Assembly: GCF_004010195.1 (NCBI RefSeq)
Contig: NC_057719.1
Span: forward strand, 40,467,323 to 40,531,322
Length of the DNA: 64,000 nucleotides
Source: Chiloscyllium plagiosum
Taxonomy: Eukaryota
Reading direction: 5' to 3'
Shown: positions 19,611 through 52,958 of the stretch, in pieces
Layout: each line of letters starts with the position of its first letter
Numbering within the stretch: the stretch's first letter is position 1
The notes under the pieces: model-generated
The model's database searches: none
What the model saw: only the letters and a program-made list of their open reading frames with translations
What the model was told of the DNA's origin: nothing
Position numbers and translations under genes: made by a program

Positions 19611-19678
19611 CAAACCACCATAAGAAGTAGTTCATTCAGCCTATCAAGTCTGATCTGCCATTCAGTGATATCATGGTT

Positions 19679-27869: not shown

Positions 27870-28000
27870 TAGGTAAAAACAATGACTGCAGATGCTGGAA
27901 ACCAGATTCTGGATCAGTGGTGCTGGAAGAGCACAGCAATTCAGGCAGCATCCGACGAGCAGCAAAATCGACGTTTCGGGCAAAAGCCCTTCATCAGGAA
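27870..28000 (-). mobile_element. Single-arm PLE-derived mini-element with intact minimal hammerhead
   Basis: Near-identical to about 31086-31211 (opposite strand) and to 29916-30005. Confidence 0.8.
27970..27997 (-). ncRNA. Minimal type I hammerhead ribozyme motif (CUGAUGA-A-GGGC UUUU GCCC-GAAA-CGUC)
   Basis: Consensus CUGANGA/GAAA/NUH core, 4-bp stem II, palindromic ACGU stem III. Activity is not shown. Confidence 0.7.
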
Positions 28001-29974
28001 GCACAGCATACCCAGAGACTCCAGCCACACTGCTGTATGTCAAAGACATCTCTGAGATGACGACCAGACTACTCCGATTCCTTGGCACCATGTAGCCCAC
28101 AAAGCTTCCAACACACTGAAACAGGTACTGATAAAGCTAAAGGACCCCGTACCAACAACCACAGAATGAATGTCATATACAAAATGCCCTCCAAGGACTG
28201 TAACAGACACTACAATGGACAGACGGACAGGAAACTAGCCACTAGTATACATGAACACCAACTAGCCACCAAACGACATGACCAGCTATCACTAGTGTCC
28301 TTACACATAGATGAAGAGGGACACCAGTTTGATTAGGACTGGACACCCATCCTAGGACAGGCTAAACAAAAACACACACAGGAATTCCTACAAGTCTGGC
28401 ATTCAAAAAGGAACTCCATTAACAAACACATTGATTTGGACCCCATTTACCAACCTCTCAGGAAAAGAACTGGAAGTGATATCACTCTCCACAGCAGACC
28501 AGAATAGAAAGCAGGTCAGAACAAGAGTGCTTCATAAGAGGCTCACTGATGTTGTTACCTAGCATGGTGACTAAACATCTGAGAACAAATCTCCCAGCTC
28601 AGCGAGCAAGCTTATAGCCAGAACTATAACCTGATACAAATCTTGGCACAAATCGCAATCATATCTTTTTTGATTTCTGTTTTTTAAACCTCCCTTTTAC
28701 TAATACAAGCTTTTTTAAGGTCAGTTTGTCTAGGATTATGTGTCAATGTCTTGACATTTAAACTTTATTTTGTGCTCATCCAAGCCACACTAACCATTTC
28801 CTCAAGTAGGTGTATTTTTCTGACACCTGTTCTTCAGTGCCATGAATTTTGTCATGTTTGTTACTTCAGTGATAACTGTCACTTTTGCACACTTACATTG
28901 GTGTCCCAAGCTCACATTATGCATCTTATCAAAAGATCCATGAGATTTTACTTAATCTCTCCATGTATGGTCACGATACCTTATAGTGGCTCAGTCGTCA
29001 TGTTACGTTTTGTTGGAAGGAAAGACAAGGACACAGACATCACCAAGAGAAAGCTATAATTTTAGTGCTCTTATTTAATCTTCCTTTTCATTGTTAACCT
29101 CAATTGCTGTTACAGCCCATTATTCTAATTAATTTCTTTTTTGTCTTCTGCAACCTCTCTCCTCCCTTAATCACATACTCTCATCCAATTTTGCAACTTA
29201 ACAATTACCATTCAATCTGATTCCAGACACCTGGAGAGATTTGTATGGAGTATGTTTTTTTTAATATCCAAAAACAGAAGTAAAACATTTCTGTTTGATT
29301 CAAGCAAAAACATACTTTGCTCATTGTTTCTCTGAGATGACTGCTCTTGATAACTCATTCTAGATGTTTGATATATCCGTGTGTAAATTTGTCCTAATTC
29401 AATATTTTGTTTACTCCCTCAAAATCATGAAAATTTTTATGCATTAAACCACTGAGGCTGTTTGCATGCATTTTACCATTTTCCAGAATGCTTTTAACTT
29501 GTCAGGTGATTGTTCCCTTTAAATGTTCTGGTTTGCCAGGACATGAATCTTAATTGTAATATACCTAAGTGTATCCAGGTTTACTGGTTCTAAGATTCTT
29601 GATACTCAATACATTTAATGTTTTCACCGTATTTCTCCAATGTTGCGATGTGTTGTTAATGAAAGGCTTGATGGGTTGAGGATGCCTCGCCTATCACTGT
29701 TGTGATGAAGAATATCTGCAGACAGGTTCAGAAATAGCAATTGGCAAAAGTCTTCAGAAAAAAATTAGGGATCTATTAAAATCTTATGAACATTAATATT
29801 CTACAGCGCACTAAAAGTTGCACTTTTTCGAGCTAAAAGGTTAAGTTGCCATAATACCCAAAGACCATTAGAGACAGATGACTAGTGCTGATTTGAACTG
29901 TCTGATCCCAGCCCTCGATCAGTGGTGCTGGAAGAGCACAGCAATTCAGGCAGCATCCAAGGACAGGCAAAATC

Positions 29975-30002
29975 GACGTTTCGGGCAAGAGCCCTTCATC
30001 AG
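29975..30002 (-). ncRNA. Minimal hammerhead ribozyme motif (CUGAUGA-A-GGGC UCUU GCCC-GAAA-CGUC)
   Basis: Intact core; differs from the 27970 copy only in loop II. Confidence 0.7.
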
Positions 30003-30372
30003 GAATAAAGGCAGAGAGCCTGAAGCGTGGAGAGATAAGCTAGAGGAGGGTGGGGGTGGGGATAGAGTAGCATAGAGTACAATAGGTCAGTGGGGAAGGA
30101 GATGAAGGTGATAGGTCAGGGAGGAGAGGGTGGAGTGGATAGGTGGAAAAGGAGCTGGGCAGGTCGGACAAGTCCGGACAGGTCAGGGGATCGAGTTGCT
30201 GGAGGTTAGAAGCTAGGATGAGGTGGGGGAAGGGGAAATGAGGAAACTGTTAAAATCCACATTGATGCCCTGGGGTTGAAGTGTTCCGAGGCAGAAGATG
30301 AGGCGTTCTTCCTCCAGGCATCTGGTGGTGAGGGAGTGGCGGTGAAGGAGGCCCAGGACCTCCATGTCCATG

Positions 30373-31011
30373 NNNNNNNNNNNNNNNNNNNNNNNNNNNN
30401 NNNNNNNNNNNNNNNNNNNNNNNNNNNNNNNNNNNNNNNNNNNNNNNNNNNNNNNNNNNNNNNNNNNNNNNNNNNNNNNNNNNNNNNNNNNNNNNNNNNN
30501 NNNNNNNNNNNNNNNNNNNNNNNNNNNNNNNNNNNNNNNNNNNNNNNNNNNNNNNNNNNNNNNNNNNNNNNNNNNNNNNNNNNNNNNNNNNNNNNNNNNN
30601 NNNNNNNNNNNNNNNNNNNNNNNNNNNNNNNNNNNNNNNNNNNNNNNNNNNNNNNNNNNNNNNNNNNNNNNNNNNNNNNNNNNNNNNNNNNNNNNNNNNN
30701 NNNNNNNNNNNNNNNNNNNNNNNNNNNNNNNNNNNNNNNNNNNNNNNNNNNNNNNNNNNNNNNNNNNNNNNNNNNNNNNNNNNNNNNNNNNNNNNNNNNN
30801 NNNNNNNNNNNNNNNNNNNNNNNNNNNNNNNNNNNNNNNNNNNNNNNNNNNNNNNNNNNNNNNNNNNNNNNNNNNNNNNNNNNNNNNNNNNNNNNNNNNN
30901 NNNNNNNNNNNNNNNNNNNNNNNNNNNNNNNNNNNNNNNNNNNNNNNNNNNNNNNNNNNNNNNNNNNNNNNNNNNNNNNNNNNNNNNNNNNNNNNNNNNN
31001 NNNNNNNNNNN
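30373..31011. other. Assembly gap (N run)
   Basis: Run of n. Confidence 1.
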
Positions 31012-31489
31012 CTCTTATGATGTGGGGTTGAACAAATGGGCCTGTACTGTAATAGAGGAGATTCTTTGAAACACGGTTATTTGGGGTGAAGGGCTTTTGC
31101 CCGAAACATCGATTTTGCCTGTCCTCGGATGCTGCCTGAATTGCTGTGCTCTTCCAGCACCACTGATCCAGAATCTGGTTTCCAGCATCTGCAGTCATTG
31201 TTTTTACCTACCTGATCCCAGCCCTGAATGAGCAGCCCCTTAGCATGAGACTGTAACATTCTCTGCTCAAAATGTGTGTTATGTTTCAAAATATTTTCTG
31301 TATATTCCTTGTTAAAGTGTATGTACTTCTATCTCCAGTCATATGTCAGTATCCAAGCTGTCACTCTGTTTTTGTAACTTGTTCTGTAGACTGCTTATAT
31401 TTTATATTTGGTTATAAGTGACAAATATGGGTGCTGCGGGACAGTTCATTCCAGACTTTTTAAGACTTAATCTTACCATGCTGAACACT

Positions 31490-31832
31490 GTGGGCGGCAC
31501 GGTGGCACGTGGGCGGTATGGTGGCACAGTGGTTAGCACTGCTGCCTCACAGCACCTGAGACCCGGGTTCAATTCCCGCCTCAGGCGACTGACTGTGTGG
31601 AGTTTGCACATTCTCCCCGTGTCTGCGTGGGTTTCCTCCGTGTGCTCCGGTTTCCTCCCACAGTCCAAAGATGTGCAGGGTCAGGTGAATTGGCCATGCT
31701 AAATTGCCCGTAGTGTTAGGTAAGGGGTAAATGTAGGGGTATGGGTGGGTTGCACTTCGGCGGGTCGGTGTGGACTTGTTGGGCCGAAGGGCCTGTTTCC
31801 ACACTGTAATGTAATCTAATCTAATCTAATCT
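31490..31832 (+). mobile_element. Young HE1-type SINE with (AATCT)n tail and duplicated 5' head
   Basis: Near-consensus box A/B, CpGs retained, aatctaatctaatctaatct tail. Confidence 0.9.
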
Positions 31833-32155
31833 TCACAAAGTCTTTAAAAAAAAAGACTTATTTACTCCATCAGAATCCTCTGCCACTATGAGCACATATT
31901 TTGCTCCAGCTGCCCCTGCTTTCATAATCAGCTGCTCTGTATCATACAGAAATGGTGCTTACACTTTCTGATTGCACTTAAGATTTACTCCACATGCATG
32001 CAACCACAAATATAAAATTATTGGTTCTCACACCATTTAGTTCTCAACTTTTGAAAGATCCTACTCTTGACATGAAATGTTAAATTGTTTTTAGGAGTTT
32101 GTGATTCCAGTTTCTTAAAATTGGCAGTTGACCATTTGTGAGCAATTTTCATATG

Positions 32156-32314
32156 CAGTCAGTTCTGCGATAACGCATGTTTCTTTGCAAATTAACTTGT
32201 ACAAAATCAAAGAATTTAGACCATTATTTGCAGAAAATGCACTTTCCTTCCTTGGCTAGAATGTGATTGTGGTCGCATAAGAACCATACCATTGCATTAT
32301 ATCAGAACAGACTG
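32156..32314. mobile_element. pogo/Tigger-like MITE (old)
   Basis: Imperfect TIRs cagtcagttctgcgataacgca / tgcattatatcagaacagactg. Confidence 0.55.
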
Positions 32315-33709
32315 TGGCTTATTGAGTTTATGATGAGGCAATTTGGACATAATACCTTGGGGTTAATTATGCACAGAAAAGAATTATGAGACTTGTGACA
32401 GGTGAGAAGACTTCACCACTCCCAAAGCTGTTCTGTAAAATGAAGAGGCAGAAGTGGTGGATCGTCTACGTTTTGGAGTAATGGGATGTATATCCCTGAA
32501 GTTTTACAGTCTTTGGTGGTAACAGTCTTTGTTAATCCCTTGAATTTTGGTCTTCTCTGAATGAGATGATAGGTTATTCCCATGGGTCGTCTTCCCTCTC
32601 TCCATCTCACTTCCTGCCTCCCTGTTGAAATACCTTACTTTTAGGGCTGGCAATCTATGCTGCATCAATCACCTATCTGAACCATTATCACGATCACTGT
32701 TGTCCCATTGCCCACTTCAGTTTGAAGATTAATTGTCATTCCTTCTCCGACCAAAGCATCCTGTTCTCCCAAATGCTGCATTGATAATAATGACTGAAAA
32801 ATCTTTGACAGTTCAATTGACTATCATTATCTCACTGATTCCTGTGAGCTTCCATGTATTTTCATATACTAGAGGTTTGTTTCTGTTTGTAAATGGCTCA
32901 TTACGACTGCAACACAGTTAAATGAGGTCTCCTGCTGCACAGTTAATACACGGTATGGAATACTGAAAGGATTCTGTTTTAAAGGGGACCACACGTTCCA
33001 ATAATTTACAACCCTCGTTACACTATTTGAAAGGACACTGATCCCACCTTCAAATGAAGCTCATTCCAGTGGAGCAACTGTCTTGTTCCCAAGTACTGGA
33101 ACCAGGACCACATGACCAGCTTCACCGCCACCAGTCTTTGAGCTACACATTTACCTCTCTAATCTTTCTTACTCTGTTCCAATTTGTATATGGCTCAAAT
33201 TGTATCCAAAGAGTATTGCCTTTGTGATTCTGCTTTCTAATTTACCCCAAACTGCTCATAATGCCCCAGCAGAACATCTTCCTGAGACGTACCTATCTTA
33301 TTGGTGACTGCATAGATTACAACACCTGAATCCTTTTCCCACCAACTCCAAGTTCCTCTCCAGTAGAGAAGATATGTCCTGAACTGGGAGCAAGAATCTC
33401 ATATGTATTGGACAAGGGTACCATTCGAGGCTTCCACATTGTAAAATGCTGGATCCTCATACCTGCCTCACTCACAGTCTTACCCTGCTGTCCCTGACCA
33501 TGGACAAAATTTGATGTAATTAACCTAAGCAGTATGATTGCTTCCTGAAACAATGTATTGTATTCCTAATAGTTATCTTTTTTTTGGAATGTTTTGTGGA
33601 GGAGATGGTGTTTTACCCATTCATAGCCATTGAAATGCAGGATCAGAAAGAATTTTATACTGTTATGGTTTAAAAAAAATGCCTGCTTTATCATTATCTG
33701 ATCTTACAG

Positions 33710-33806
33710 GTTCAACTATAATTGTGAGAGAAACTACTTTGATGCCAAATATCCATGGACTTCCAACTCTCATCTGTTTGTTATTCGCTCCAGTTGTAGA
33801 ACTAAG
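33710..33806 (+). CDS. TDRD9: TDRD9 coding exon (STIIVRETTLMPNIHGLPTLICLLFAPVVELR)
   Basis: AG/GT flanked, phase 1 to 2. Resembles human LRETSLMPHIPGLPALLSMLFAPVIELR. Confidence 0.95.
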
Positions 33807-34236
33807 GTACATGTAAAAATATGCATGAGAATCGCTGCATAAAATTTCATTTATTTTATGTCTTTCTCTTTTGTCACTTTAAACATTCTTCCTTTAACCA
33901 GACTAGTGATCTGGGTCACTTCTCTACAAAACTAGCTGTGGTGTCTGATGACTGTGTTTGTAAAGAAGCATTTTTTTTTATGTGATGATATTGAATTTAA
34001 AATTTCCAAATGGTAGGCATATATTCTTTCTCTTAGAGCTGTGTATCTTTGCATCTGAACACAAGCATCAGTTGTCAAAATTGCTCAAAGATTCTGGTTG
34101 ATGCTTGTCTTCAGCAGCCACAATGAAGCATATGAGAATAGCACACAAGTTATAATTTTAGAGGTAGGATGGTTGTACCGTTTGGTGTTTTTGGTTGTCC
34201 TCGCCTAGGCTGATTGTTAATTTTCTGTTTCTACAG

Positions 34237-34375
34237 AACTGAGAGACGGAGAAAATATTACACTGGTGCTTTGTGTGGCTTAGGGTGGAATCCAATAAAC
34301 AATGCCCCTCTATTGGAAGAACATGATCTGGAAGTTGTTTTTGATGTGCATTTTGATGTAAATGATATTATGGAG
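34237..34375 (+). CDS. TDRD9: TDRD9 coding exon (TERRRKYYTGALCGLGWNP...EHDLEVVFDVHFDVNDIME)
   Basis: AG/GT flanked, YYTGxLCGLGWNP motif. Confidence 0.95.
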
Positions 34376-34850
34376 GTAGTGTGCTAATACAGTGTGATTT
34401 GCTAAGAAACTTAACTGTTCTCCACCTGAATTCCATCTATAATATTTTTAAATTTTGTTAAAGGGATGACCCGTGCCTTCTGGATAATATTTTATTTTAC
34501 ATGAAATTTCTTAAGTTGTGTAATTAAATTTTAGGTGGCTGATATTTGATTGTGAATATTCACAAATTGAAGATTTAAAATTTTGAAATACTTCTTGCTC
34601 TTTGGTAAACATTTAGAATTATGCTAACTATCTGAAACTAAAGATAATTTAATAATGATACAACAGCTAGTTAGGAAGGAAAGTTGAGACTTTGTTGGTT
34701 GAGCTTTCTTATTGCTGACATCAGATTTCCAAATGTTAAATTAGTTAAAGTTAACTTGCATCATTTGATATGTAGTCACCTTTCATTTAAAAGCTGAAAT
34801 ATTTTTTACCTAATAAACTCTAGGGAAGCGTAATCTAGCAGGAGGAAGAC

Positions 34851-36768
34851 TCTGGATGTAAGTTTGCTCACTGAGCTGGAAGGTTCTTTTTCAAAAGTTT
34901 TGTCACCATATTAGGTAGCATCAGTGAGCCTCCGGTAAAGCACTGGTGTTGGTGACCCGCTTTCTATTTGTGTTTAGGTTTCCTTGGGTTGGTGATGTAA
35001 TTTCCTGTTCCTTCTCTCAGAGGGTAGTAAATGGGGTCTAAGTCGATCTGTTTGTTGAGTGTTCTGGTTGGAATGCCATGCTTCTAGGAATTCTCGTGCA
35101 TGTCTATATTGGCTTGTCCTAGGTTGGATGTGTTGACCCAGTTGAAGTGGTGTCCTTCCTCATCTGTATGTAAGGATACTAGTGAGAGTGGGTCATGTCT
35201 CTTTGTGGCTAGTTGATGTTCATGTATCCTTGTGGCTAATGTTCTGCCTGTTTGTCCAATGTAGTATTTGTTATAGTTCTTGCAATGTATTTTGTAAATG
35301 ACATTAGTTTTGCTTGTTATCTATATAGGCTCTTTAAAGTTCATTAGCTGCTGTTTTAGTGTGTTGGTGGGTTTGTGGGCTACCATGATGCCAAGACGTC
35401 TGAATAGTCTGGCTGCCATTTCCGAGATGTCTTTGATGTATGGGAGAGTGGCTAGGGTTTCTGGACACATATTTTGTTTTCTTGTTTGGGTTTGTTGCTG
35501 AGAAATTGGCAGACTGTGTTCATTGGGAACCCATTCTTTTTGAATACACTGTGTAGTATTTTCCTCTGCTCTGCGTAGTTCCTCTGTGCTGCAGTGTGTG
35601 GTGGTTCATTGAAATAATGTTCTAATGTAGCTTTGTTTGTGGGTGTCGAGGTGATTGTTTCTGTAATTCAGTATTTGGTCCGTATGTGTTGTTTTCCTGT
35701 ACACGTTGGTTTGAAGTTCCCGATTGGTTGTTGGCTCAACTATGACATCTAGGAATTACAGTTTTGTTGTCGTTTTTCCTCCTTTTTAGTGAATTTTATG
35801 CCAGTAGGATCTTATTGATGGTCTTGAAGATTTCCTCCAATTTGTTTCGTTGAGTGATGACAAAGGTGTCATTCGCATAGTCCACACAGTTTAGGTTGGA
35901 TGGTTGGCAGAGCTGTTTGTTCGAGTCTCTGCATTACTGCCTCAGCTAAGAACCCTGATATTGGAGATCCCAAGGGTGTTCCGTTGGTTTGTCTGTAAGT
36001 TTTGTAATTGAAAGTGAAGTGGGTGGTAAGGCATAGGTCCGCCAGCTTGATGACATTATCCTTGCTGGTGAAGTTGATGGTGTTTGGTGTATGTGTCTTT
36101 GCTTCTTTTAATAGTGTAGTCAGTGTTTCCTTGGCCAGATTGATGTTGATGGATGTGAACAGGGCTATTATGTTAAAGGAGACCATTGTTTCATCCACTT
36201 CTATCTTGGTGTCTTTGGAATTCAGGAATTCCTGGGTGTCGTGGTGTGAGTCTTCTACTAAGTGTTTTAGTCTTTGGTGTAGCTCCTTGGCTAATCTGTA
36301 CGTTGATGTGCCTTGCAAGAACTGTAACAAACACTACATTGGGTAAACAGAAAACTAGCCACCGTGATACATGAATATCAACTAGCCACAAAAAGATGTG
36401 ACCCACTCTCACGAGTATCCTTACATACAGATGAAGAAGGATACTACTTTGACTGGGACAACACATCTATCCTAGGACAAGCCAAACAGAGATGCGCACG
36501 AGGATTCCTGGAAGCACGGCATTCCAACCGGAACTCCTATCAACAAACACACCAACTTTGACACCATTTACCACCCTCTGAGAAAAAGAACAGGAAATGA
36601 CGACATTACAGGAAATGACATCACTAACTCAAGGAAACCTAAACACAAATAGAAAGCAGATCACTAATGCCAGTGCTTCACTGGAGGCTCACTGATGATG
36701 TTACCTAGTACAGTGCCGAAACTTGTGAAAACGAACCTTCCAGCTCAGCGAGCAAACTTACATCCAGG
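34851..36768 (-). mobile_element. Penelope-like element (RT and GIY-YIG on -) with an inverted GIY-YIG/pLTR segment (about 36300-36768 on +)
   Basis: Minus ORF 35869..36330 (SFNIIALFTSI, GTPLGSPISGFLAE). Termini ctggatgtaagtttgctc / gagcaaacttacatccag are inverted. Confidence 0.9.
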
Positions 36769-36769
36769 A

Positions 36770-37320
36770 CAAAGTTTGTGAGAAGATTTGTAGCTCGGGT
36801 GCTCGTTGTTGTGGTTCTGTTCGCCGAGCTGGGAATTTGTGTTGCAGATGTTTCGTCCCCTATCTAGGTGACATCCTCCGTGCTTGGGAGCCTCCCGTGA
36901 AGCAGATTGATGTGCTTATTGATGTGCCACGAAACGACACGAGCAGCTATCCTTAGTAGCCACACATGCAGATGACAAGCAACATGAATTCGACTGGGAC
37001 AACACCACTATTATAGGACAAGCCAAACACACGGAATTCCTAGAGGCATGGCATTCATCCACAGATTCAATCAATAAGCACATCGATCTGGACCCAATAT
37101 ACCGACTACTGCAACGGACAGTTGGAACTGACAACCGGAAGCAGCAGATTCAAACCACTACAAATGCCGGAGGAAAGATCACAGAAGCGCTTTACAGGAG
37201 GCTCCCAAGCCCTGAGGATGTTACTCAGACGGGGAACGAAACGTCTGCAACACAAATTCCCAGCTCGGCGAACAGGCATTCAGGACCTCAACCCGAGCTA
37301 TAGATCTTCTCATAACTCGC
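36770..37320 (+). mobile_element. Second PLE subfamily fragment with inverted pLTRs
   Basis: About 36820-36905 is the reverse complement of about 37185-37273. Internal GIY-YIG C-terminal DWDNTTIIGQAK..EFLEAWHS. Confidence 0.85.
37212..37245 (+). ncRNA. Minimal hammerhead motif in pLTR (CUGAGGA-U-GUUACUC AGAC GGGGAAC-GAAA-CGUC)
   Basis: Core intact, stem II with one mismatch. Mutated mirror copy at about 36847-36880 on -. Confidence 0.6.
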
Positions 37321-38086
37321 TAAGAGCAAGGCTGTTTATCTGATGATAAATAAGGATATAAGATGTAATATTTTTTGGCAATGGGTTCATGTACAGCTTT
37401 GTAAAATAATTCTGTACTTGGAAGAATGAAAATTTCTTTTTAATTCATGTACAAATAATGCCACTTTCATAGGGATTTGAGTCTGAAATCAATTCTGCAT
37501 TGTGCATAATGGGTTGCTAATTGCTAATATGCGTTATTTTTGGCATCTTATGAAAGAAATCGAATTTATGACTGCACAAATGTTAAGGCTGCTTCTTCGT
37601 GATGTTGAAAGGTGACACTAAGAAAGCAAGTATTTTCACAATTACCTAAATTGCTACATTGCCCTTGAAATTCATTCAAATAATGAAAAATTGTTTGTTC
37701 TGAAAGCTGAACTCCACACTGAAATTACAAATTAATTCTGTGCTTCAAGACCCGTTTGGTATAATTTCAGATGGGCTCAGTCATTTTGATATGTGACACT
37801 GCTGTTAAATATATAATCATTCTCGTGTCAAATATTTAACAATAAATTTCTGTTCTCCAAATGTCTGTCAGCTACCTCAAATAGATTTCATCTTCTGTAA
37901 TGTGTTACAGGCTAGTATATTTGTCAGTCTTCTCAGACTGTGTTCTTGAGTTTGTGTTGATAGAATGGAATTATTTTTTTCCATCAACTTTTTTTTTAAT
38001 CAACTTAGCTACGTATTGGATAGATTCAATAAAATGTTTCTCATCTTGAAAATGTTGAAAAATTATGTTTGAACCTTTACCTTTAG

Positions 38087-38199
38087 ATAAACCTACTGCG
38101 GAGCACAATTAACATGCTAGTTTGTGATGGACTATTGCGTTCAGGAAATCATGAGAAAATACGTAAACTGCAAAATGAAGCCCGGCAGAGACTTATAGA
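38087..38199 (+). CDS. TDRD9: TDRD9 coding exon (INLLRSTINMLVCDG...LQNEARQRLI)
   Basis: AG/GT flanked. Resembles human VNILRAAINKLVCDG..LQDIARQKLL. Confidence 0.93.
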
Positions 38200-41984: not shown

Positions 41985-42528
41985 GCCATTGAAATAAAGA
42001 TGTGGCACTGTTCAGAATTACTGACTTAAGAAGAAAAGGATTGGAACCAGTTAAACTCCAAAATATCAAAAATGCTCATGTTGGTTTTCAGTTGAATGCT
42101 TCCTGTTTTGAAACAGTTATAGCTGACGGAACAGAAATGGCCTTTAAACAAGATGCTACACTTTCTTAAATTCTGGATTAGAAGGTACTAAAGTACAAGC
42201 AATTGCTTTAAAACCAGTAATGTGATCCAATTACAAGCTTATTTTGGAGCAGTAAATCTGGTTTTAGCTTTTACTTTGATTACAAATTGATGCATTATGA
42301 TTTGTTTTATCTGTAAGGGGGCATTGAAGCTAGTTGCATGCTAATTAAGGATAAAAATTATTACATGAGCGAAAGGTTTGAAAATACTATTGGCTATATT
42401 GCTAAGCACTTCTTATTTGATTTATTTAAGTTGTTCAAAGAAGCAATGTTCCATTAGATATCCCAATGCTGCATAAAGTACAGAAGAAGTATTTTGTTCA
42501 TTGTAACATTATTTTGTTTAAACTTGTT

Positions 42529-42534
42529 AATAAA
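42529..42534 (+). terminator. Candidate TDRD9 polyadenylation signal AATAAA (a proximal one is at 41993-41998)
   Basis: AATAAA about 545 nt after the stop, at the end of an AT-rich non-repetitive 3' UTR-like tract. Confidence 0.5.
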
Positions 42535-42619
42535 AAAAAACACGTTTTTGAACCATTAAGTTACGTGGATGAATTTTAAATGTTTTGCAGTGCCTATACA
42601 GTTCTCATATATATGTCAA

Positions 42620-42990
42620 AGTGTTTTGAGGAACACTGCCTAAGCAAGACCAGAACAAAAAATGTTCCGCGTGTCCTTTGAAAAGATGGGTACAACTAAG
42701 TCCCATGCGGGTACTAATGACAACACCTTTTATTCAGAAGAAATAGATCAATTAAAAGAGAAATTATTAAGTAGGAGAACATTTTGTCTAAGGGAGCAAT
42801 GGTGGATAAAGACTGGTTTGACGTCATTTAAAGATAAAAGATGGAGAGCAGGCAGACCATGTGAGTGTGGGATGGAAGTGGAGATAGATTTAGATACCAG
42901 TGATGAATAGAAGATGGCAAGTGGAAACTACTAAAGTGGTTATCAAAAGAATCACGGACATAAGTCAGGAGAACTGAGTGAGACTGGAAG
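42620..42990 (-). mobile_element. Old PLE RT fragment
   Basis: Minus strand reads IKGVVISTRMGLSCTHLFKGHAEH, a decayed KGVAMGTRMGPSYACLFMGYVEH. Confidence 0.6.
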
Positions 42991-42994
42991 ATAA

Positions 42995-43620
42995 TTATTT
43001 CAAGGGGCTTGGAGTGTAAGAGTCAGAAAATCTTACTGCAATTGTGCAAGGTGCTGGTGAGACTGCATCTGAAGTAATGCGAGCTGTTTTATTCCCCTTA
43101 TTTAAGGAAATACGTCATTTCTTTTGGAGGCGGTTCACAGAAAGTACATAAGGATGATCCCAGATATGGAATGATTGCCTTATGAGCAAAGGCTAAACAG
43201 TATGGGACTCTACTTGCTGGAGTTCAGAAGAATGAGAGGGTGATCTCATTGAAACATGTAGGATTCTTAAGGAACTTAAGGGTAAATGCTGAGAGGATGT
43301 TTCCCCTCATGGGGGAATCTAGGACTAGAGGGCACAGTCTCAGAATAAAGGGGTGCCAATTTAAGACGGAAATGAGGAGGAATTTCTTCTCTGAGGGTTG
43401 CAAGTCATTGAAAGTTCTTTCTACAGTGAGCTTTGGCAGCGTCCTTGTTTATATATTTAAGGTTGAGGTAGATAAATTCTTTCAGTCGGGAAATCAAGGA
43501 TTATGGAGAAAACATAGGAAAATGAGTGTGAGGAATGTCAGATCAGCCCTGATCCTGTTGAATGGTAGGCCAGGCTCAATGGACCAAACAGCCTACTCCT
43601 GTTCCTACTTATGGTCTTAA
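42995..43620 (+). mobile_element. CR1 3' fragment
   Basis: MFPLMGESRTRGHSLRI...RRNFFS plus CR1 tail. Confidence 0.85.
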
Positions 43621-44559
43621 GATTAAAAAAGGATGAGTTTGGACAGGTCAGAGAGTCTAAAATACTAACTTTGCTCGGGAAGACCTGTTTGTGGAACTTT
43701 GAATTTAAAGACTGAGATTGGAAGCTGTTGACGGAAGATCTCTGGAGGAATTAAGGACAGTGACCGTTTTGGATACAACAGCTTGATATTCATTAATGGT
43801 GACGTAGACCTTGGAAGTAGAAGGAAGTGTCAGAGTTGCCTGAATCTGAGAGAATAGATTATAGCAGGTTTAGAGGAAAACCGATTAGAGTAAGTAGGGG
43901 CCGAAGAGAAATTGGGAACTGTTGGAGTGGTATTGTCCAACTCAATAAAAAAATAGGTAGAGATAGGAGACCAAAGGGAGGGGTGCAGATGGAGGAAGAA
44001 CAGGAGTCAGGTGAATAGATCTGCTAATTGGACGGACTCCTGATCAAAGAACTGTGTACTGAGATGAAGGGAGTAGAGAAAAACTCAACATTGTCCTGAG
44101 CTGAAAAATCATTAATGTGTGGCACAAAGTGATAAAACCTTAAGTTCTAATGCAGAGTTTTCTAAACCTGCAAGCTCCGATCCTAAAACCACATATACTG
44201 CAATTTCCGTTACATTAAACAGACTTACTCTAAAAATCTTAAGTTTAACAGCATGAACAGAAGAAACTTTTCCAATTCTTTATTTTCTGAAAAAGTCATC
44301 AAACTTGAAAGTTAAATTTTTGCTCTGCACAAATACCATCCAACCTGCTGAGCAGGTGACCTTACTTTTGCCAGAAGTAGTCGGTCTTATTTTAGCTAAT
44401 CAACACCCTGCATTATTTAGAATGTTTCTCTTAAATCTATCCTTCCATATCTCTGTACTAAAGAAAGTAGCCTCTGCTTTATTCACCTCCCCTCTAGGCT
44501 GAAATTCCACATCCCTGGTACAGTATAACATTACTATAGAGAGTTGAGCACAGCTTAGT

Positions 44560-44740
44560 CCATCACAAAGCAAACAACATTACCAAAGACCCGTCCCACC
44601 CTGGTTATACACTCTCTCACCATATTCTGTTAGGCAGAAAATATAAAAGCTTGTATACATGTATGAATACATTCTTTCTTGCTGTCATCAAACTTTTGAA
44701 TGAACTCTCAAACGTTAATCTCTCACAGCACCTTCTCTGT
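44560..44740 (+). mobile_element. Rex1/Babar-like LINE 3' fragment
   Basis: KDPSHPGYTL...LGRKYKSL..FFLAVIKLLN resembles the Rex/Babar C-terminus. Confidence 0.55.
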
Positions 44741-46224
44741 GGCTGTAATCCCACTCAGACCCACAACCCCCCCCCCCCCCCCCCCCCATCCTATTCTTGT
44801 GACCCTGCATTTCTCTGGCTAATTCACCAAGAAAATCCATGCAGACGTGGGGAGAATGTGCAAACTCCATATAGATAGGCACCTGAGTATGAAATCTAAC
44901 TCCTGGCCCTAGTACTGTGAGCCATGGTGTTGTCCAGAAGTGTTGTAATCTTTAAAAGGACATGGACTGGTGGAATGGACAGATAAGTGGCTTATTTAAT
45001 TTGTTGCAGAGAAATGTGACATAAATCATCAATTGAAAAGAAGGATGAGGAGAGCTACAAACAAAAGGTTGCAATCCAAAGGAAGTGCAGGTGTATAAGA
45101 ATCTATGGCTTGATGTGCATAAACCACTGAGGGTGATGAGATCATTTTGAGGTGATTCATAAAACAATGCCTTTAAGTAAGAACATTCTGTACAAATGCA
45201 AGGGAGTTGTGATGAACCTGTTTAAGCCTCATTTGGAGTATAGTGTCCAGCACTGCCGTGACCAGGAAAAATTTGACTGCATTGTAGATGCAAGTCTTGT
45301 TACTAATTCTAACGATGAGGATTGACAACCTGAAGAGGAACTGGAGATCTGATACAAGTTTACAAAATCATGAGGGAGTCATCATAAAATACCACCAAAT
45401 TGACATCCAGATTTGCAGACAGATGGCAAATCGGGTGACTGATCTATTTTAAGAAGTGTTAGAGAATTGGAGTTATTGGTGTACTGAAGAATCATAGAAT
45501 CAGAGAGATGTACAGCGCAGAAACAGACCTTCTGTACAACTCGTCCAGTCTGATCAGATATCGTTATCTAATCTAGTTTCATTTGCCAGAACTTGGCCCA
45601 TATCCCTCTCAACCCTTCCTATTCATATACCCATCCAGGTGCCTTTTAAATGGTATAATTGTACCAGCCTCCACAGATGTGGTGCAGAAATGACCACTGG
45701 AAAGAAAGAGTGGAACGTTGGAGGTCACCATGAGATCCAGAGACAGGGTCAAAAAGGCATTTGGCTGGGGAACCAGATTGAAGATGAAACAAGGTAGGCC
45801 AGTGATAGGATAAACCCATAGTGCAGTAGCAGTCTGGAGTGTGTGGGATTTGTAACCTAGGCAAGTGTTTTAAATTTTAAACGGCCGAACAGCCGTTCAG
45901 AAAGTTTATTTTTAGGGCCTAATCTGGTGTCTGAGCATATGGGTGTACAAAAATTGAAGATGCAACATATCAGATAATTGAAGGTACGTTCTATATTTGG
46001 GAGGAGGCACTGTAGAACGGAACATTGAATGCAGTTTATGAAATAAGAATGGGGATGGAGTCGATTATGGAGATCTGAATGCACGGTGTCTATTCGGGAA
46101 TGTATCCTGGGGGTATGAATGCACTTTGCTTCCAAAGGTTGTAGAATGGAGAATGCATGGTGTGCAGGGGAGAGGGCTGTGCATTAAACAGTGGGGTGTA
46201 GAATGGCTATTGCTTAATGTGTTT

Positions 46225-46270
46225 TGACGTCAGGCGATGGCTGATTGGCTCTGCCAACACCGCCTCCTTT
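46225..46270 (+). promoter_or_regulatory. ASPG proximal promoter: palindromic CRE (TGACGTCA 46225-46232) and inverted CCAAT/NF-Y box (CTGATTGGCT 46241-46250), at the edge of a CpG-rich island
   Basis: Consensus motifs about 70-100 nt upstream of the ATG. CpG density rises sharply over about 46225-46800 relative to the rest of the window. Confidence 0.6.
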
Positions 46271-46321
46271 TGCTTCTCTTGATTCCTCAGTCTCAGTCAG
46301 TCTCAGTCTGGTTTTGTTCCG

Positions 46322-46604
46322 ATGGCGGAGAACAGTGCTGTACCGAGTTCCGGCTCCATTTGCAACATTTCGTCCCTTTCCAGCGCGCTGTCCAACACCA
46401 GGCTTGACCTGCTGGACTCGGAGAGCTCTGTTGCCCGCGATGGAGCTAATGTGCCCCGATCAGGCGCCAGTTTTCAGTCGCAGAGGCGCCGACTCCGCCG
46501 GCGATCAAGCAGCTACAGCGTGGAGTCGGCGGACGGTCCAAGTGAGGTTCGAGTGTTGGTGATAAATACCGGCGGAACTATTGGCATGATGTACAGAGAT
46601 AACG
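46322..46604 (+). CDS. ASPG: ASPG exon 1 (N-terminal extension plus VLVINTGGTIGM asparaginase motif)
   Basis: ATG in good Kozak-like context (cgATGG), TGGTIGM catalytic Thr motif, AAC G|gtgagt donor. Confidence 0.92.
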
Positions 46605-47219
46605 GTGAGTGAAAAGCTTACAATCAATTGTACACAAAGCCGCATCTAGGACACAGTTGAAAAACATTTGTTCCGGGGTGACCCTTCAGGGACTTGCTTC
46701 AATTAAACTGTGGCTGAGCTGCACTTTAAGTGGGCTTCAATCCCTTTCTAACGTGTCGGAGACATCCCTCGAGTTCGGCGACAGCGGGATCTTGATAATA
46801 TGATCTCAGCCTTTGTGTCGTTATGTGTCCAGAATACTCGAGTCTAGAACTCGATATGAAGTAGAAATTGTAAATCGGCACATTTATAGTTTTTTTTCAC
46901 TTGGGGCCATCCAAGTGTTGTTACGACAGGTTACACGAGCTAAATGTTCCAGTTAGTGCGGAATTCGCTCTACTTCGCTTGTTCATCACATGTAAATTGA
47001 GCCAATTATATTCACTAAAATTGTTAGAACCAATGTTAATCGATGTATCCATGAACACTAAGGCTGGAAGCATATTCACTCATGGCTTTTTAAAGAAAAA
47101 ACCACCTGAAGAAAGAATGTTTGAATGGTTGTTGGTATGTTTAAGAAAGTAGGACACTGAGTTACTTCTTCAGGGTGAGCGTTCCAAGAGGAGACATGGC
47201 AGGCGATTAAACACAATGA

Positions 47220-47350
47220 AAGCCGAAAGAACTGCGGATGCTGTAAATCAGAATCAAAAAACACAATTGCTGGAAAGGCTAAGCAGGTCTGGCAGCATCT
47301 GAAGAGAAATCAAAATTAACGTTTCGGGTCGGTGACCCTTATTCAAAACT
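47220..47350 (-). mobile_element. PLE-derived mini-element arm with partly decayed hammerhead
   Basis: Minus strand UUGAAUA-A-GGGUC ACC GACCC-GAAACGUU followed by the gatgctgccagacctgct...cagcatccgcagt tail. Confidence 0.65.
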
Positions 47351-49842
47351 CTTATCCTTCATTAGCCATCTGGGCTCAAAACGTTGGTTTGCTTTCTCTC
47401 CATGGTTTCATTTCACACTGAGTTACTATTGCTCAATTGTATGATTGGCCTCTTTTTAACCATTTTATGATTCTATAAGTGAGTGGCAAATTGTCAAGTT
47501 TTGAGAAGAAAATTTAGGGAAGGCCAAGAATGTAGCAATGTTGATAATAAATAAGATAAATGGATTGTGCAGAAAGGACAGAATTAGAGAAGTTATCAAA
47601 GAAACTGGGACGAAAGCCAATATTGTCACACTAGAAGCCTGTGGTTTTGTTTAGAAGAAATAAGGATCAGGACATTAAAAAAAATTAAAATAATTAAATT
47701 ATTACATTTTATGATTACATTTATTTATTTATTGTCGTGTGTATCTAAGTACAGTGTTTATGAGCTTTGTTTATGAGCAGTGCAGTGCAGTAAGCAACGA
47801 CTTACGGGTCATAGGGTGAAAAAACTCAGACAGAGGCATACAGGGTCTGTGAGAGGCAAGATCAGCATTAGCAAATATAATGTATACCAGACTATAGTTT
47901 GAAGAAAACACAAGAAAATGGTGAAAATGCAGTGAGCAGAAACAATTGTGAAGAAGTTGAAAGGATATCGTACAGACGGACTTAAAAGTTAAGCAATGAA
48001 AGTAACTTTAGAACAAACAAATACATGGACCACGTTACAAATGCAGTCAGCTAAAATGAGCAACAGTGTTGTATTTACCTCACATTGGAATTAAATGAAA
48101 CAATAATGCTCTATTAAAAAACAAATAATAGTTCCAAACCAAACAAAAATGCACAAATACCAGGAAGGAACATGGCTAGGAGAGAGCTAGTTGCCTTAGG
48201 CATGGTGAGTTTAGCTGTCTGTTTATATTGAATAATAAATATTGGTTAGGATACTTGGTATACTGTTATTCAAACAGAACTCTTTACGTTCAACTTAGCA
48301 AGTGGAAAAACACATCTCGTGCAAGTCAAACTGTTCAACAATGCTGCATTCTCTTAGTACCATGTTGCAGAGTCAGCCAAAATCCTGTGCTTAAGTTTCT
48401 GGAATGGGTCTGAGGTCTCAAAACCAACAGGCCAATGCATCATGGGGTTTCACATGGAATATTTGAGAAGCATTTCAAAAGGTGTAAGTCACAGGTTTGA
48501 CTAAAACTGCCGCATGTTCACACAGAAATTATGGAAAACAACTTTTGCTAGACCAAGAAAATGTTTTGAAACATATAGCAAAAGCCAATTATCTTAGCTA
48601 TTATGTTAGAGGACTGAGAGGCCTGGACAGATGTGGCAAAGGTATTTTGAATAGAAAGGCACAGCATCAGAGTGAAGGTTTGAACCTTGTTATGAAGTTA
48701 AAGGCATGTACTGTACCTTTGGAGAGAGTGAATGCTGTTCTAACTGAAAGATTACAAGCACCTGGGTATGTGACTAGATGGCAGTCCCAGAGTGTACTGG
48801 AAAATTGAAAATATGTAACATTTGGTGTGAAATGAATACCCGAGTTGGTTGCTGTTTTGACAACAATTCAAATTTAATCACTCAGTTTAAATTATGCCCC
48901 AGGATACTAAAACCCAATTGAGTGAATTTATTGTTTTGCGAAAATTGAACCAATGTTGGGGATATAAAAATGCAGATATTTTGAAAATTGCAGAGAAATC
49001 AACTGCCATTGAGAGAGACCCAAGAAATTATCAAACACTATCGAAGGTACTTTTTCATATGAAACATTTTTGCAGTAAAAGAAAAAGATGACAACTCAGG
49101 GAGATCTTTATTCAAAAGAAGAAAGACACGGAAGACTACAGCGGCTGTGTGGTTTCGAAATTAAGTTGATGTAATTTTAATAAGTGTCTTATTGGAACAG
49201 CATATCTTTATAGTGTTGGAGGCAGATAATAAGCAAGAGAAAGGAAGGGGGCTTACGGTTGTGAATAGTTGTTTAATGTTCACTTGTAGAGTTAAACAAT
49301 AAATTGATATTTTGTTTTACATAGTGGAATTTGGGAATTCTCTGTCACTCATATTTTAACAGATTACGAGGCGAGGTGAGCTTTTCTGGGTGTTTGGTTT
49401 AATTAACAGAAGGCTTCACCGCTGTGTCATGACAACCTTTATAACTGAGGTGAGGAGGAACTTGTTCAGCCAGAAAGAGTGAATCTGTGGAAGGCATTAC
49501 TGCAGAAGGCTGTGGAGACCAAATCATTGAGCGTGTTTAAGACAGAGTCACCTTCTTGATTAGTAAAGGATCAAGGGTTTCAAGAAACATATCAGCTGTA
49601 TTAAATGGTGGAGCAAACTTAATGAGCCACATGGCCTAATTCTTCGGCTGTCTTATGGAAGGGAATAAGGGAAGAGATATTGTAGAACATTAGAAAATTC
49701 TAAGATGTATTCACAACTCTAATAACGTTCCTATAATTAATGTTGCTGAAAATCTAATTCCAATTGTAATCGTTTTGGCTTAAGAACTTGGTTCTGAATA
49801 AACACAGATAAGACATTTATTTTTTGTTTTCTTTGTCTTTAG

Positions 49843-49972
49843 TACTTGCACCACAATCAAACTCCCTTGTCAAAGCCCTTCGAAAAATGCCAGGCCTGCA
49901 TGATGAATGTTATGCTCAAGAAACCAAGCTTTACGACTTCTGTGACTCACCAGAAAACAGTTTGGTTCTTCC
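49843..49972 (+). CDS. ASPG: ASPG exon 2 (LAPQSNSLVKALRKMPGLHDECYA...NSLVLP)
   Basis: AG/GT flanked, phase 1 to 2. Resembles human LRTLPMFHDEEHA..DTLVLP. Confidence 0.93.
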
Positions 49973-51010
49973 GTAAGTCACTATTTGTTTTTGTTTGCTG
50001 TCAAACTCTGGAAACAATTAACATTAGACAAACATGGATTAAAAACCATCAGATTGCGGATAACATAGCATTGAACTTGTTTCTATCTAGATCTGATCCA
50101 CTTTTTAGGTCATTTCATAAAGATACCACGGTCAGCTTGGCTTGGTTCATGCCTCTCTTGTTTCTTAGTGTGAAGATGTAGTCAAGCCCCAAACCAGGAT
50201 TTGGATTTGTCTGACAGGCTGATACTTAAGTGTAGTGTTGAGGACTTTGGAGTTGCATCATTTGAATTGAATATTAGATTTAGCTTAAATAGTAAATGAA
50301 GAGCAGAAGAATGGCGTGGTCTTTCTCATTTCAATGTAGCCATAACATATTTGAATAATGCAAGGTACCAAAATGAAAACCTTGAATTTAGTGAATATTT
50401 TCTATGCCATATGTTTTCTAATTATATAAAGAATCAATTATTCACATGCTGAATTGACTTCTGTGATCACCAGAGCTGGTTGCGTTGGGAGGGATGATTT
50501 ACTATGTGATCTTCCATTGCAACAAACCCATCAGACTCCACATTCACGAAAGCGAGGTGGTGTGATGATAGTTACCTGATAAAGGTTGATTTGGTCTCTT
50601 AGTTGATTAAAAAAGTATATCAAGGCACCCCCCCACCCCCCGACACATATAAATTAAGTTTTTGAATTTACAACATGATAAAGATTTTGATTGTTTTAAC
50701 ATTCACTACTTTCATCAATGGCATACTTGTCAAATTTACATAGTATCAATAGCTTCATGAATAGCATTGAATATTTAATAATTGATAAAATATTAAAATT
50801 GATAAAAGGTTGCTGAAAAGAATTGCATAATGTGATGATGTGGGGGGATACATCATATTTTATTGTAAGGGAATTGACAGTTTTGATACATGTCAATAAT
50901 GAGATTTTGCAAGTGTGAGACCAGCAAAGTTTACTTAATGATTTATTTAATGTTAAATAAGTTAAAAATTATCAGTATTAGAAATATAAAACTGTTTCTT
51001 CTGTTTACAG

Positions 51011-51122
51011 TCTTTGTAGGTCAAATAAAAGGATTGTATATTCAGTCATTGAATATTCACCTCTTCTGGACTCATGTAACATGAACACAGATGATTGGGC
51101 TAAAATTGCAGTCGATATAGAG
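51011..51122 (+). CDS. ASPG: ASPG exon 3 (LCRSNKRIVYSVIEYSPLLDSCNMNTDDWAKIAVDIE)
   Basis: AG/GT flanked, PLxDSxxM..W asparaginase motif. Confidence 0.95.
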
Positions 51123-51998
51123 GTAAGTTGAAATTTGGGCCAAGTATGAGTTGATATTAATGGAATCAGTCAATGCTGAAAATACGTTGTATGGTCATTA
51201 GTTGTGAAAACAAGTAATTCAAAAGACTGCATCGGCCTTGTTCAAAAGGAGTTAATCTGATGTAAAAGATCTCCATGTAATAAATACTTTGTAGATCAAG
51301 TTCTTTTACTGGTTTAGACATTGTAGTTGGATGTTTAGCATTCATTGAGTAAACATACTTATAATTTGTCGTATTTACATTTCTAAAACGTTTTGAAATG
51401 ACATGAAAGATATAAAACAGACATCAATGTCTCTCAATATCCCCAATCTTTTACGATACTCTTGTTGGAACTCCAGTGCATGATAGAATTCCACATGAGG
51501 CCAAGACCCATGTGCTCGGTATGCAGTTTACCTTCAAGGTTCTGTGGACCTCTTTAATTGATAGAAATTGTGTCTATTATTCCCTTACATAATATAAGGG
51601 GATGGGAAGGGATGGATTTTTAGTGCCAAATCCTCAGTTATTTTTCAGTTGACTGATATTAATGGTATGCAAGGCCTTAGTTAGTTTGGGGTGTTGGATA
51701 TAAGAGTAGGGGGGTCTTACTACAATGTACAATGTGTTAGTGAGACCACATCTGGACAACTGTGAGCAGTTTGGTCCCCTTATTTAAGGAAAGATATTTA
51801 ATTGGAAGCAGTTCAGACAAGGTTCACTGGGATGATTTCCCCCCCCATGGAAGGATTGTCTTATGAGCAAAGATTAAACAGGTTGGACCTCTGTTCACTG
51901 GTGAGAAAGTGAGGTCTGCAGATGCTGGAGATCAGAGCTGAAAATGTGTTGCTGGAAAAGCGCAGCAGGTCAGGCAGCATCCAGGGAACAGGAGAATC

Positions 51999-52026
51999 GA
52001 CGTTTCGGGCCTAAGCCCTTCTTCAG
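51999..52026 (-). ncRNA. Minimal hammerhead motif (CUGAAGA-A-GGGC UUAG GCCC-GAAA-CGUC)
   Basis: Intact core and stem II. Confidence 0.65.
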
Positions 52027-52268
52027 CAATGAGGAAAGTTTGTCCAGCAGGCTAAGATAAAAGGTAGGGAGGAGGGACTTGGGGGAGGGACGGTGGAAAG
52101 AGGTCAAGGTGAGGGTGATAGGTCACACTGGGGTGGGGGCGGAGACGTCAGCAAGAAGATTGCAGGTTAGGAAGGCGGTGCTGAGTTTGATGGATTTGAC
52201 TGAGACAAGGTGGGGGGAGGGGAAATAAGGAAACTGGTGAAATCCGAGTTCATCCCTTGTGGTTGGAG

Positions 52269-52601
52269 NNNNNNNNNNNNNNNNNNNNNNNNNNNNNNNN
52301 NNNNNNNNNNNNNNNNNNNNNNNNNNNNNNNNNNNNNNNNNNNNNNNNNNNNNNNNNNNNNNNNNNNNNNNNNNNNNNNNNNNNNNNNNNNNNNNNNNNN
52401 NNNNNNNNNNNNNNNNNNNNNNNNNNNNNNNNNNNNNNNNNNNNNNNNNNNNNNNNNNNNNNNNNNNNNNNNNNNNNNNNNNNNNNNNNNNNNNNNNNNN
52501 NNNNNNNNNNNNNNNNNNNNNNNNNNNNNNNNNNNNNNNNNNNNNNNNNNNNNNNNNNNNNNNNNNNNNNNNNNNNNNNNNNNNNNNNNNNNNNNNNNNN
52601 N
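52269..52601. other. Assembly gap (N run)
   Basis: Run of n. Confidence 1.
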
Positions 52602-52759
52602 AATCTGAGTTCATCCCTTGTGGTTGGAGGGTTCCCACCCCAGTCTGACCTATCACCCTCACCTTGACCTCTTTCCACCTATCACATTTCCGACACCCCT
52701 CCCCCAAGTCCCTCCTCCCTACCTTTTATCTTAGCCTGCTGGACAAACTTTCCTCATTC

Positions 52760-52787
52760 CTGAAGAAGGGCTTATGCCCGAAACGTC
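52760..52787 (+). ncRNA. Minimal hammerhead motif (CUGAAGA-A-GGGC UUAU GCCC-GAAA-CGUC), sense to ASPG intron 3
   Basis: Intact core and stem II, palindromic ACGU stem III. Confidence 0.7.
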
Positions 52788-52958
52788 GATTCTCCTGTTC
52801 CCTGGATGCTGCCTGACCTGCTGCGCTTTTCCAGCAACACATTTTTAGCTCTGTTCACTGGCGTTTAGAAGAGTGAAAGATCAGCAATTCTGGTCTCCTT
52901 CCTATTGGAAGGATGTTGTGAAACTTGAAAGGGTTCAGAAAAGATTTACAAGGATGTT

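What the first reader, a model, noticed from the sequence alone, without database searches (positions are those of the whole stretch)
27870..52848. Multiple intact minimal hammerhead ribozyme motifs on Penelope-derived mini-elements
Seen: CTGA(T/A)GA-A-GGGC-loop-GCCC-GAAA-CGTC at 27970-27997(-), 29975-30002(-), 51999-52026(-) and 52760-52787(+). Substitutions fall only at N7 and loop II. Decayed versions lie at about 4155-4180, 17815-17845, 18069-18095, 19778-19825, 31085-31110 and 47317-47347. Seen: 30240-30370(-) links this family to a PLE GIY-YIG C-terminus. Established: PLE pLTRs carry minimal type I hammerheads with a palindromic stem III (ACGU) that cleave as dimers. Inference: this genome holds a large, diversified family of non-autonomous ribozyme-bearing PLE derivatives (retrozyme-like), possibly not described in this lineage.
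Basis: partly seen in the sequence, partly recalled or inferred. Interest (0 to 1): 0.72.

Follow-up and report, generated by a model that had tools for sequence, protein, structure and literature searches.

The report
Penelope run-off stubs carrying uncut hammerheads
The four self-cutting-RNA motifs are real but are end-pieces of an ordinary, very abundant Penelope-like jumping gene; many short copies in this genome begin at the motif's first letter, often behind an extra G, so they are likely DNA copies that ran off the capped front of uncut RNA rather than a separate ribozyme element.

Summary
The four motifs are present, and the genome holds 87,506 exact matches. They are the known minimal hammerhead of Penelope-like elements (PLEs). 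Here it sits in the pLTR/5' UTR of a Neptune/Nematis-type family with RT and GIY-YIG coding copies, 163 nt before the ATG. The four motifs are three insertions. Only one (27970) is a true stub; 51999 has a broken helix I closing pair. These are not tandem retrozymes: 54 head-to-head pairs against 7 same-strand neighbours among 240 copies. Helices and core covary between subfamilies, but individual copies decay neutrally. Of 150 tail-anchored copies, 47 begin at -5 to -1 (start of helix I) and 2 at the cut site. An extra G precedes that start in three subfamilies but not a fourth, and a TATA-like box lies about 31 nt upstream. Best reading: run-off cDNAs from capped, uncleaved RNA. The scan noted this before on other DNA of this and other genomes. 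Known kind, with a useful mechanistic clue; no cleavage or start site was tested.

The parts
27872..28000 (-). Copy A: true stub, from 3 nt before the hammerhead core (27970-27997) to the long tail end; inserted antisense into a broken Poseidon-like PLE endonuclease region (clade name from recalled likeness)
   Evidence: 96% to B-family reference; probable ~11-bp target duplication with one indel (read by eye)
30213..30371 (-). C-terminal 52 codons of the PLE ORF, cut by an assembly gap (30373-31011)
   Evidence: 78,239 first-look candidates in the genome; relative L059 has a weak GIY-YIG hit
30007..30212 (-). Pyrimidine-rich 3' UTR / upstream pLTR of copy B with TATA-like TTATCT at about 30033-30038, 32 nt before the start of helix I
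   Evidence: promoter role inferred
29914..30006 (-). Copy B hammerhead (helix I start 30006, core 29975-30002) and short tail
31087..31210 (+). Inverted arm of the same insertion as B, truncated inside the core, long tail; target duplication at 29902-29915 and 31212-31225
51903..52268 (-). Copy C: ORF end, 3' UTR, hammerhead (51999-52026, helix I closing pair broken) and long tail; left arm of a head-to-head insertion
52602..52849 (+). Copy D: 28 nt repeating the far edge of the gap, partial 3' UTR with TATA-like box (52725-52730), hammerhead (helix I start 52756, core 52760-52787), short tail; target duplication at 51889-51901 and 52849-52861
52959..53205 (.).
   Evidence: 1,779 exact genome matches to the family pattern
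19678..19870 (.). Head-to-head stub pair of an older subfamily joined at the hammerhead; minus-strand core complete, stem II weakened
4090..4290 (.). Decayed head-to-head pair of an old subfamily, joined inside the core (ends approximate)
17760..17850 (-). Decayed old-subfamily copy with upstream UTR (ends approximate)
18069..18196 (+). Decayed stub
47231..47400 (.). Decayed old-subfamily copy on the minus strand with a partial inverted arm (ends approximate)

Best explanation
The motifs are the minimal hammerhead at the front of the 5' UTR of an RT- and GIY-YIG-coding Penelope-like family, and the short copies are likely run-off cDNAs made from capped, uncleaved element RNA that likely starts at the first base of helix I. 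Shown: the module order (3' UTR, TATA-like box, helix I, core, tail hairpin, ATG); two groups of 3' ends (about +75 to +96 and +124 to +127, counting from C3); a sharp 5' boundary at -4 that does not depend on the 3' end; an excess G just before it in three subfamilies; head-to-head pairs inside one target duplication. Inferred: Pol II starts at A(-4) in a partial-tandem copy; the protein primes reverse transcription at the internal tail sites from target nicks, as shown for the anole element; in the 5' copy of the module it reaches the cap after 90-130 nt and often copies it as an extra base; priming from both target strands gives two such cDNAs that join by microhomology into a palindrome; priming in the 3' copy gives ordinary 5'-truncated long copies. 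Stubs lack the upstream box and a tandem partner, so they are probably dead ends. The ribozyme is probably selected only in source elements, perhaps acting with protein help at another step.
For: Module precedes the ORF: L295, ATG at +163, frame open for the 102 codons read. Linker CX4CxxC. RT and GIY-YIG Pfam hits below curated cut-offs. 47 of 112 ends in the -30..+39 range fall at -5..-1 (p 1e-24 against uniform), 2 at +27..+29 (4.8 expected); copies were anchored on the tail, not the core. 22 of the 54 ends at -8..0 have unique flanks, 11 of them with a shared 8-mer or longer on both sides; 32 are inverted junctions. 24 long-tail and 29 short-tail copies share the boundary. G at -5, hand counts of the first 100 listed matches: 60 of 100 non-C (54 of 87 after dropping palindromic junctions and one duplicate; 25% expected), 46 of 100 (39 of 70), and G:A 28:18 (p 0.003). 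The excess also holds where the cut product would begin GAAUC, so it is not simply borrowed from a cleaved end. TATA-like T-A box at about -31 in diverged UTR types. Loose ends pile at -4 in three laid runs. Uncleaved RNA is the main substrate, and both strands are primed at two internal sites, for anole Poseidon (PMC11167929).
Against: No G excess in the U3-A8 subfamily (6 of 38 by hand; p 0.8), though the -4 boundary holds there. My local test was not significant (14 of 53). None of 20 near-full-length copies begins at -4: one starts at -45, the others at about +94 or further in. RNA reads showed no pile-up of starts, but that library is poly(A) single-cell and dominated by passenger copies on both strands. 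The box is not a canonical TATA. About 4-5 of the 22 'unique-flank' ends may be older UTR types. Hand counts cover the first listed matches, mostly contig C1.
Confidence: 0.65

Rival explanations
1. Ordinary 5' truncation with a hotspot: RT copying the 3' module stalls, or the cDNA is cut or joined, at the ATT/pyrimidine-tract border through endonuclease preference and microhomology, with no RNA end there.
For: Anole PLE endonuclease prefers ATT (PMC11167929). In 4 of 10 solo copies with a duplication, it overlaps the first bases of the element. No near-full-length copy starts at -4 (0 of 20).
Against: 32 of 54 boundary ends are arm-to-arm joints with no target DNA. The boundary holds where the first bases are AGCT or AGTT. 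The ATT right after the cut site is not a hotspot. It does not explain the extra G.
Confidence: 0.17
2. The stubs are a self-propagating non-autonomous (SINE- or retrozyme-like) family whose own short RNAs, possibly circular, are copied in trans.
For: Fixed ends, very high number, target duplications; pLTRs can act in cis for mobilisation in trans (PMC3846280).
Against: All five subfamilies inspected have long UTR-bearing copies. Tandem units are rare: 7 same-strand neighbours within 600 bp among 240 copies, most not true repeats. Stubs lack the upstream box. No joint at the cut site was listed in the four laid runs (weak test).
Confidence: 0.12
3. Palindromic pairs arise by self-priming on an antisense transcript, as proposed for rotifer Penelope, with the boundary set by a bidirectional pLTR promoter.
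For: PMC3846280 (passages read) proposes this for head-to-head palindromes; some joints are perfect palindromes (23 of 100).
Against: Solo stubs with target duplications have the same boundary. The extra G lies at the sense 5' end. Both arms end at the sense-strand tail sites.
Confidence: 0.06

Closest known systems
Minimal hammerheads (min-HHR) of metazoan PLE pLTRs, including fish Neptune, Poseidon and Xena (Cervera and De la Pena 2014, PMC4209133; parts 1-2 of 4 read)
   Same: Type I core, extra base between 9 and 10.1, G10.1-C11.1, palindromic 15.2-16.2, short helix I, mostly dispersed single copies, opposite-strand pairs, several covarying families, a U3-A8 core variant
   Different: Helix II is only 4-5 bp (7-8 bp in the schistosome families); 87,506 exact matches against about 4,000 and 9,000 reported for coelacanth and Xenopus (different search methods); no fixed 5' boundary or extra G described in the parts read
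Poseidon of Anolis carolinensis (Frangieh et al. 2024, PMC11167929; parts 1-3 of 4 read)
   Same: Hammerhead at the pLTR-ORF junction, two 3' end positions (tail), insertion from uncleaved RNA, both target strands extended
   Different: Other clade (linker zinc motif here); ATG lies 163 nt after C3 rather than inside stem II; the 5' run-off boundary is not discussed there
Non-LTR retrozymes (PMC7229834, passages read; bioRxiv 10.64898/2026.07.22.740005, parts 1-3 of 5 read)
   Same: Type I hammerhead, PLE pLTR origin, non-coding short units
   Different: Retrozymes are head-to-tail tandem repeats, in the 2020 paper with canonical ribozymes and circular RNAs; these copies are solo or head-to-head with minimal ribozymes
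Inverted pLTR plus tail structure of EN+ PLEs (PMC3846280 and PMC8557442, passages read)
   Same: Partial tandems, inverted 5' arm, optional 30-40 bp tail, target duplications, TATA/Inr-like pLTR motifs, gaps in short-read assemblies
   Different: Here the commonest product is only the two arms, with ends piled on the start of helix I

Membership tests
EN+ Penelope-like element, Neptune/Nematis type | Single ORF with RT followed by C-terminal GIY-YIG | tested here: met
   RVT_1 E 3e-5 on L097 and GIY-YIG E 2.8e-4 on L059, both below Pfam cut-offs, 2 of 5 proteins hit; order from overlapping copies; no gap-free intact ORF was seen
EN+ Penelope-like element, Neptune/Nematis type | CX2-5CxxC linker between RT and EN (PMC8557442) | tested here: met
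   CX4CxxC in L107; last Cys changed in L083
EN+ Penelope-like element, Neptune/Nematis type | pLTR by partial tandem, inverted 5' arm, optional tail, target duplication | tested here: met
   L295; inverted arms across gaps; two groups of 3' ends; duplications
EN+ Penelope-like element, Neptune/Nematis type | Phylogenetic placement in Neptune versus Nematis | not tested
   No reference sequences at hand; 'Neptune' rests on vertebrate distribution in the 2026 preprint and on recall
Minimal type I hammerhead | Conserved core, stem II, palindromic helix III | tested here: met
Minimal type I hammerhead | Helix I with compensatory change between families | tested here: met
   Family majorities ATTC/GAAT, ATTC/GATT (U.U at pair 3), AGTC/GACT, AGTT/AACT, AGCT/AGCT; C3-G8 versus U3-A8 (families of 6 to 90 copies). 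Not met for copy C
Minimal type I hammerhead | Self-cleavage after GUC | not testable with these tools
   The minimum-energy folds of the four copies, as monomers or core dimers, are not the active fold
Non-LTR retrozyme | Head-to-tail tandem units each with a hammerhead | tested here: not met
   54 head-to-head pairs, 9 tail-to-tail and 7 same-strand neighbours among 240 copies in 1.34 Mb; a few arrays elsewhere are not excluded
Non-LTR retrozyme | Monomer or circular RNA made by cleavage | tested here: inconclusive
   No joint or end pile-up at the cut site in four laid runs, one with no reads on the stretch; libraries unsuited
Non-autonomous PLE derivative (SINE-like) | Subfamily that exists only as short copies | tested here: not met
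   Long UTR-bearing copies in all five subfamilies inspected; sample-based, not genome-wide

The most novel reading that the evidence does not exclude
Tens of thousands of stubs record a strong-stop-like step of Penelope replication: transcription starts exactly at the outer pair of hammerhead helix I, RT starts 90-130 nt downstream, copies the cap, and either jumps to the RNA's 3' part to build a pLTR or is integrated at once. The ribozyme would then serve as a 5' leader that tunes or caps this step rather than as the unit-length cutter, and the palindromes would show that both target strands are primed by one protein dimer.
Probability: 0.35. Interest if true: 0.62.

Novelty: new member of a known kind. 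Interest (0 to 1): 0.38.

Why it matters
How PLEs form pLTRs and inverted ends, and what their hammerhead does, is still open (PMC8557442, PMC11167929). If the reading holds, these stubs give the RNA start, the two RT start regions and the cleavage state of the template from genome sequence alone, and they give exact predictions for CAGE and for in vitro priming assays. They also warn that hammerhead counts in such genomes mostly count inert by-products. The ribozyme motif itself is not new.

Tried and rejected
Rfam scan: no hammerhead family matched; sub-threshold miRNA hits are hairpin artefacts. Retrozyme reading: rejected on arrangement. Fixed-length 'ruler' from the RT start: rejected, the 5' end is independent of the 3' end. 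5' ends made by hammerhead cleavage: 2 of 150. Selection on individual copies: none seen, non-CpG mismatch 4.1% core versus 4.1% tail (64 copies) and 2.8% versus 4.5% (39 copies), CpG core positions 9-12%; both sets were pre-filtered by fuzzy motifs. A conserved 3' splice site at the boundary: no AG there in the B and D families. Local extra-G test: not significant. Search for a gap-free full-length copy: failed, long copies run into assembly gaps. Sequencing runs: no RNA holder listed; laid reads covered both strands about equally and gave no start or end pile-up. Thermodynamic folding did not give the active fold. In one search the GAGC pattern captured B copies and the script stopped before the last family was parsed; the GAGC family is taken and the old family read by eye. 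Literature: seven searches found no paper on this shark-type family or on a capped run-off boundary; Repbase and Dfam could not be searched, and supplements were not read. The host lineage (cartilaginous fish) is from recall and earlier scan notes, not tested.
Full report
Observation. The pattern finds exactly the four stated motifs, against 0 in 100 shuffles. The own genome (3.56 Gb) has 87,506 exact matches to the version with a 4-nt loop, and 0 to the reversed control. The window's density is therefore typical of the genome. The six decayed sites are related copies. Rfam lists no hammerhead at E<=1. Positions below count from C3 of the core as 0; cleavage would fall between +27 and +28.

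Anatomy in the window. B runs from an ORF C-terminus through a 3' UTR into the hammerhead and a short tail, and its 5' part is hidden by a gap. The arm at 31087-31210 on the other strand closes the same insertion, with a shared 14-bp duplication. C and D face away from a gap whose two edges share 28 nt and are enclosed by a 13-bp duplication. A is a 129-nt stub inside a broken PLE of another type. So the four motifs are three insertions, and only A is a mini-element. Many other copies break at the same base beside gaps, which is what collapsed young repeats do in short-read assemblies.

The parent element. Walking upstream through relatives gave a GIY-YIG-like end, a CX4CxxC linker, RT and an N-terminal region; the two Pfam hits are below the curated cut-offs. 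First-look candidates fall from 78,239 for the C-terminus to 48,195, 17,306 and 3,347 further upstream, the gradient of 5' truncation. One of 20 near-full-length copies (L295) shows 3' UTR, hammerhead, tail, 36 nt, then an ATG at +163 whose frame is open for the 102 codons read. The hammerhead and tail are therefore the 5' UTR as well as the 3' pLTR. The linker places the family with Neptune/Nematis by the definition in PMC8557442 (passages read). I did not build a tree, and no gap-free intact ORF was found.

Is the ribozyme under selection? Between subfamilies, yes by inference: helix I majorities are ATTC/GAAT, ATTC/GATT, AGTC/GACT, AGTT/AACT and AGCT/AGCT, stem II varies with pairing kept, and one family swaps C3-G8 for U3-A8 (1,779 matches to its pattern). 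Within subfamilies, copies decay about equally in core and tail, faster at CpG. The two families that hold the four motifs have the weakest helix I. Folding did not give the active conformation. Published PLE motifs of this kind do not cut as monomers and cut poorly as dimers (PMC4209133, parts 1-2 of 4), and the anole one needs protein (PMC11167929, parts 1-3 of 4).

Where copies begin. I took 140 stretches of 10 kb from ten regions chosen without regard to the motif (1.34 Mb without N) and anchored on the tail only. Of 240 hits, 156 passed 88% identity over 35 nt, and 6 ending at gaps or edges were dropped. Of the remaining 150, 54 begin at -8 to 0, 39 inside the core, 23 at +28 or later, 7 at -30 to -9 and 27 further upstream. 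The peak is at -4, the first base of helix I: 47 of 112 ends in -30..+39 fall at -5..-1 (p 1e-24), and 2 at the cut site. The boundary is the same for long-tail (24) and short-tail (29) copies. Of the 54, 32 are arm-to-arm joints and 22 have unshared flanks; about 4-5 of these may be older UTR types. Laid reads and contigs also show loose ends at -4 and a roughly fivefold fall in read depth beyond it. Among 240 copies there are 54 head-to-head pairs and 7 same-strand neighbours, so these are not tandem retrozymes as defined in PMC7229834 (passages) or the 2026 preprint (parts 1-3 of 5).

Why there? I saw G before the boundary in 8 of 17 copies and a start-site-like context. Earlier scan notes suggested a cap-derived G and a TATA-like box, and I then tested both. 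My local test was not significant (14 of 53). Genome patterns, counted by hand on the first 100 listed matches, gave G in 60 of 100 and 46 of 100 non-C cases (25% expected; 54 of 87 and 39 of 70 after dropping palindromic joints), and G:A of 28:18 in the B family (p values). The U3-A8 family shows no excess (6 of 38). That RT adds a base opposite a cap is my own knowledge of L1 and retroviral RT, not from a call. A T-A-rich box sits about 31 nt upstream in diverged UTR types; it is not canonical. Penelope pLTR promoters are known: an internal one in Drosophila (PMC2377424, passages) and TATA/Inr-like motifs in a rotifer (PMC3846280, passages). Against the reading: 0 of 20 near-full-length copies start at -4, and RNA reads show no start pile-up (unsuitable library).

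Mechanism. Most likely the RNA starts capped at -4, RT is primed at internal tail sites as shown for anole Poseidon, and priming in the 5' module runs off after 90-130 nt. Priming from both target strands gives palindromes; priming in the 3' module gives ordinary truncated copies. The template was uncut, since the copies span the cut site and do not begin there. Stubs lose the upstream box and are probably inert. I put this at 0.65; the identity as a PLE minimal hammerhead at about 0.95.

Novelty. The motif, its link to PLEs, dispersed solo copies, opposite-strand pairs and the U3-A8 variant are published. Seven literature searches found no description of this family or of the fixed capped boundary; repeat databases and supplements were not seen. 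The scan's own notes list 38 similar findings in at least 10 genomes, none near this window. The host is probably a cartilaginous fish (recall and those notes; not tested). Verdict: new member of a known kind, with a testable clue to PLE replication; interest 0.38.

Noticed in passing
window 52959-53205: Head-to-head stub pair of a subfamily with U3-A8 core and perfect palindromic helix I; 1,779 exact pattern matches in the genome; same -4 boundary but no extra G
   Followed up: partly
   Followed up: no
window 9799-9941: Near-perfect 143-bp inverted repeat giving sub-threshold miRNA-family matches; probably a small palindromic mobile element
   Followed up: no
window 26400-27650: Broken RT-coding LINE fragment on the plus strand, RTE-like by recall
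   Followed up: no
L264 (G000:C14:50945249-50948443), upstream of the RT core: The PLE ORF has a long Thr/Pro/Ser-rich low-complexity stretch between its N-terminus and RT; many open frames of 1,100-1,250 codons are listed but may include N runs
   Followed up: no
window 52241-52268 and 52602-52629: The two edges of the 333-N gap share 28 nt, so the gap may be spurious and C and D directly joined
   Followed up: partly
L299 (G000:C3:94717868-94719068): 5' junction of a long copy with an inverted arm and several short repeats of the ORF start, suggesting repeated template switching
   Followed up: no
one search list, four matches on C1 and C2: Four copies share the same ten upstream letters before helix I, pointing to a further UTR variant of that subfamily
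   Followed up: no
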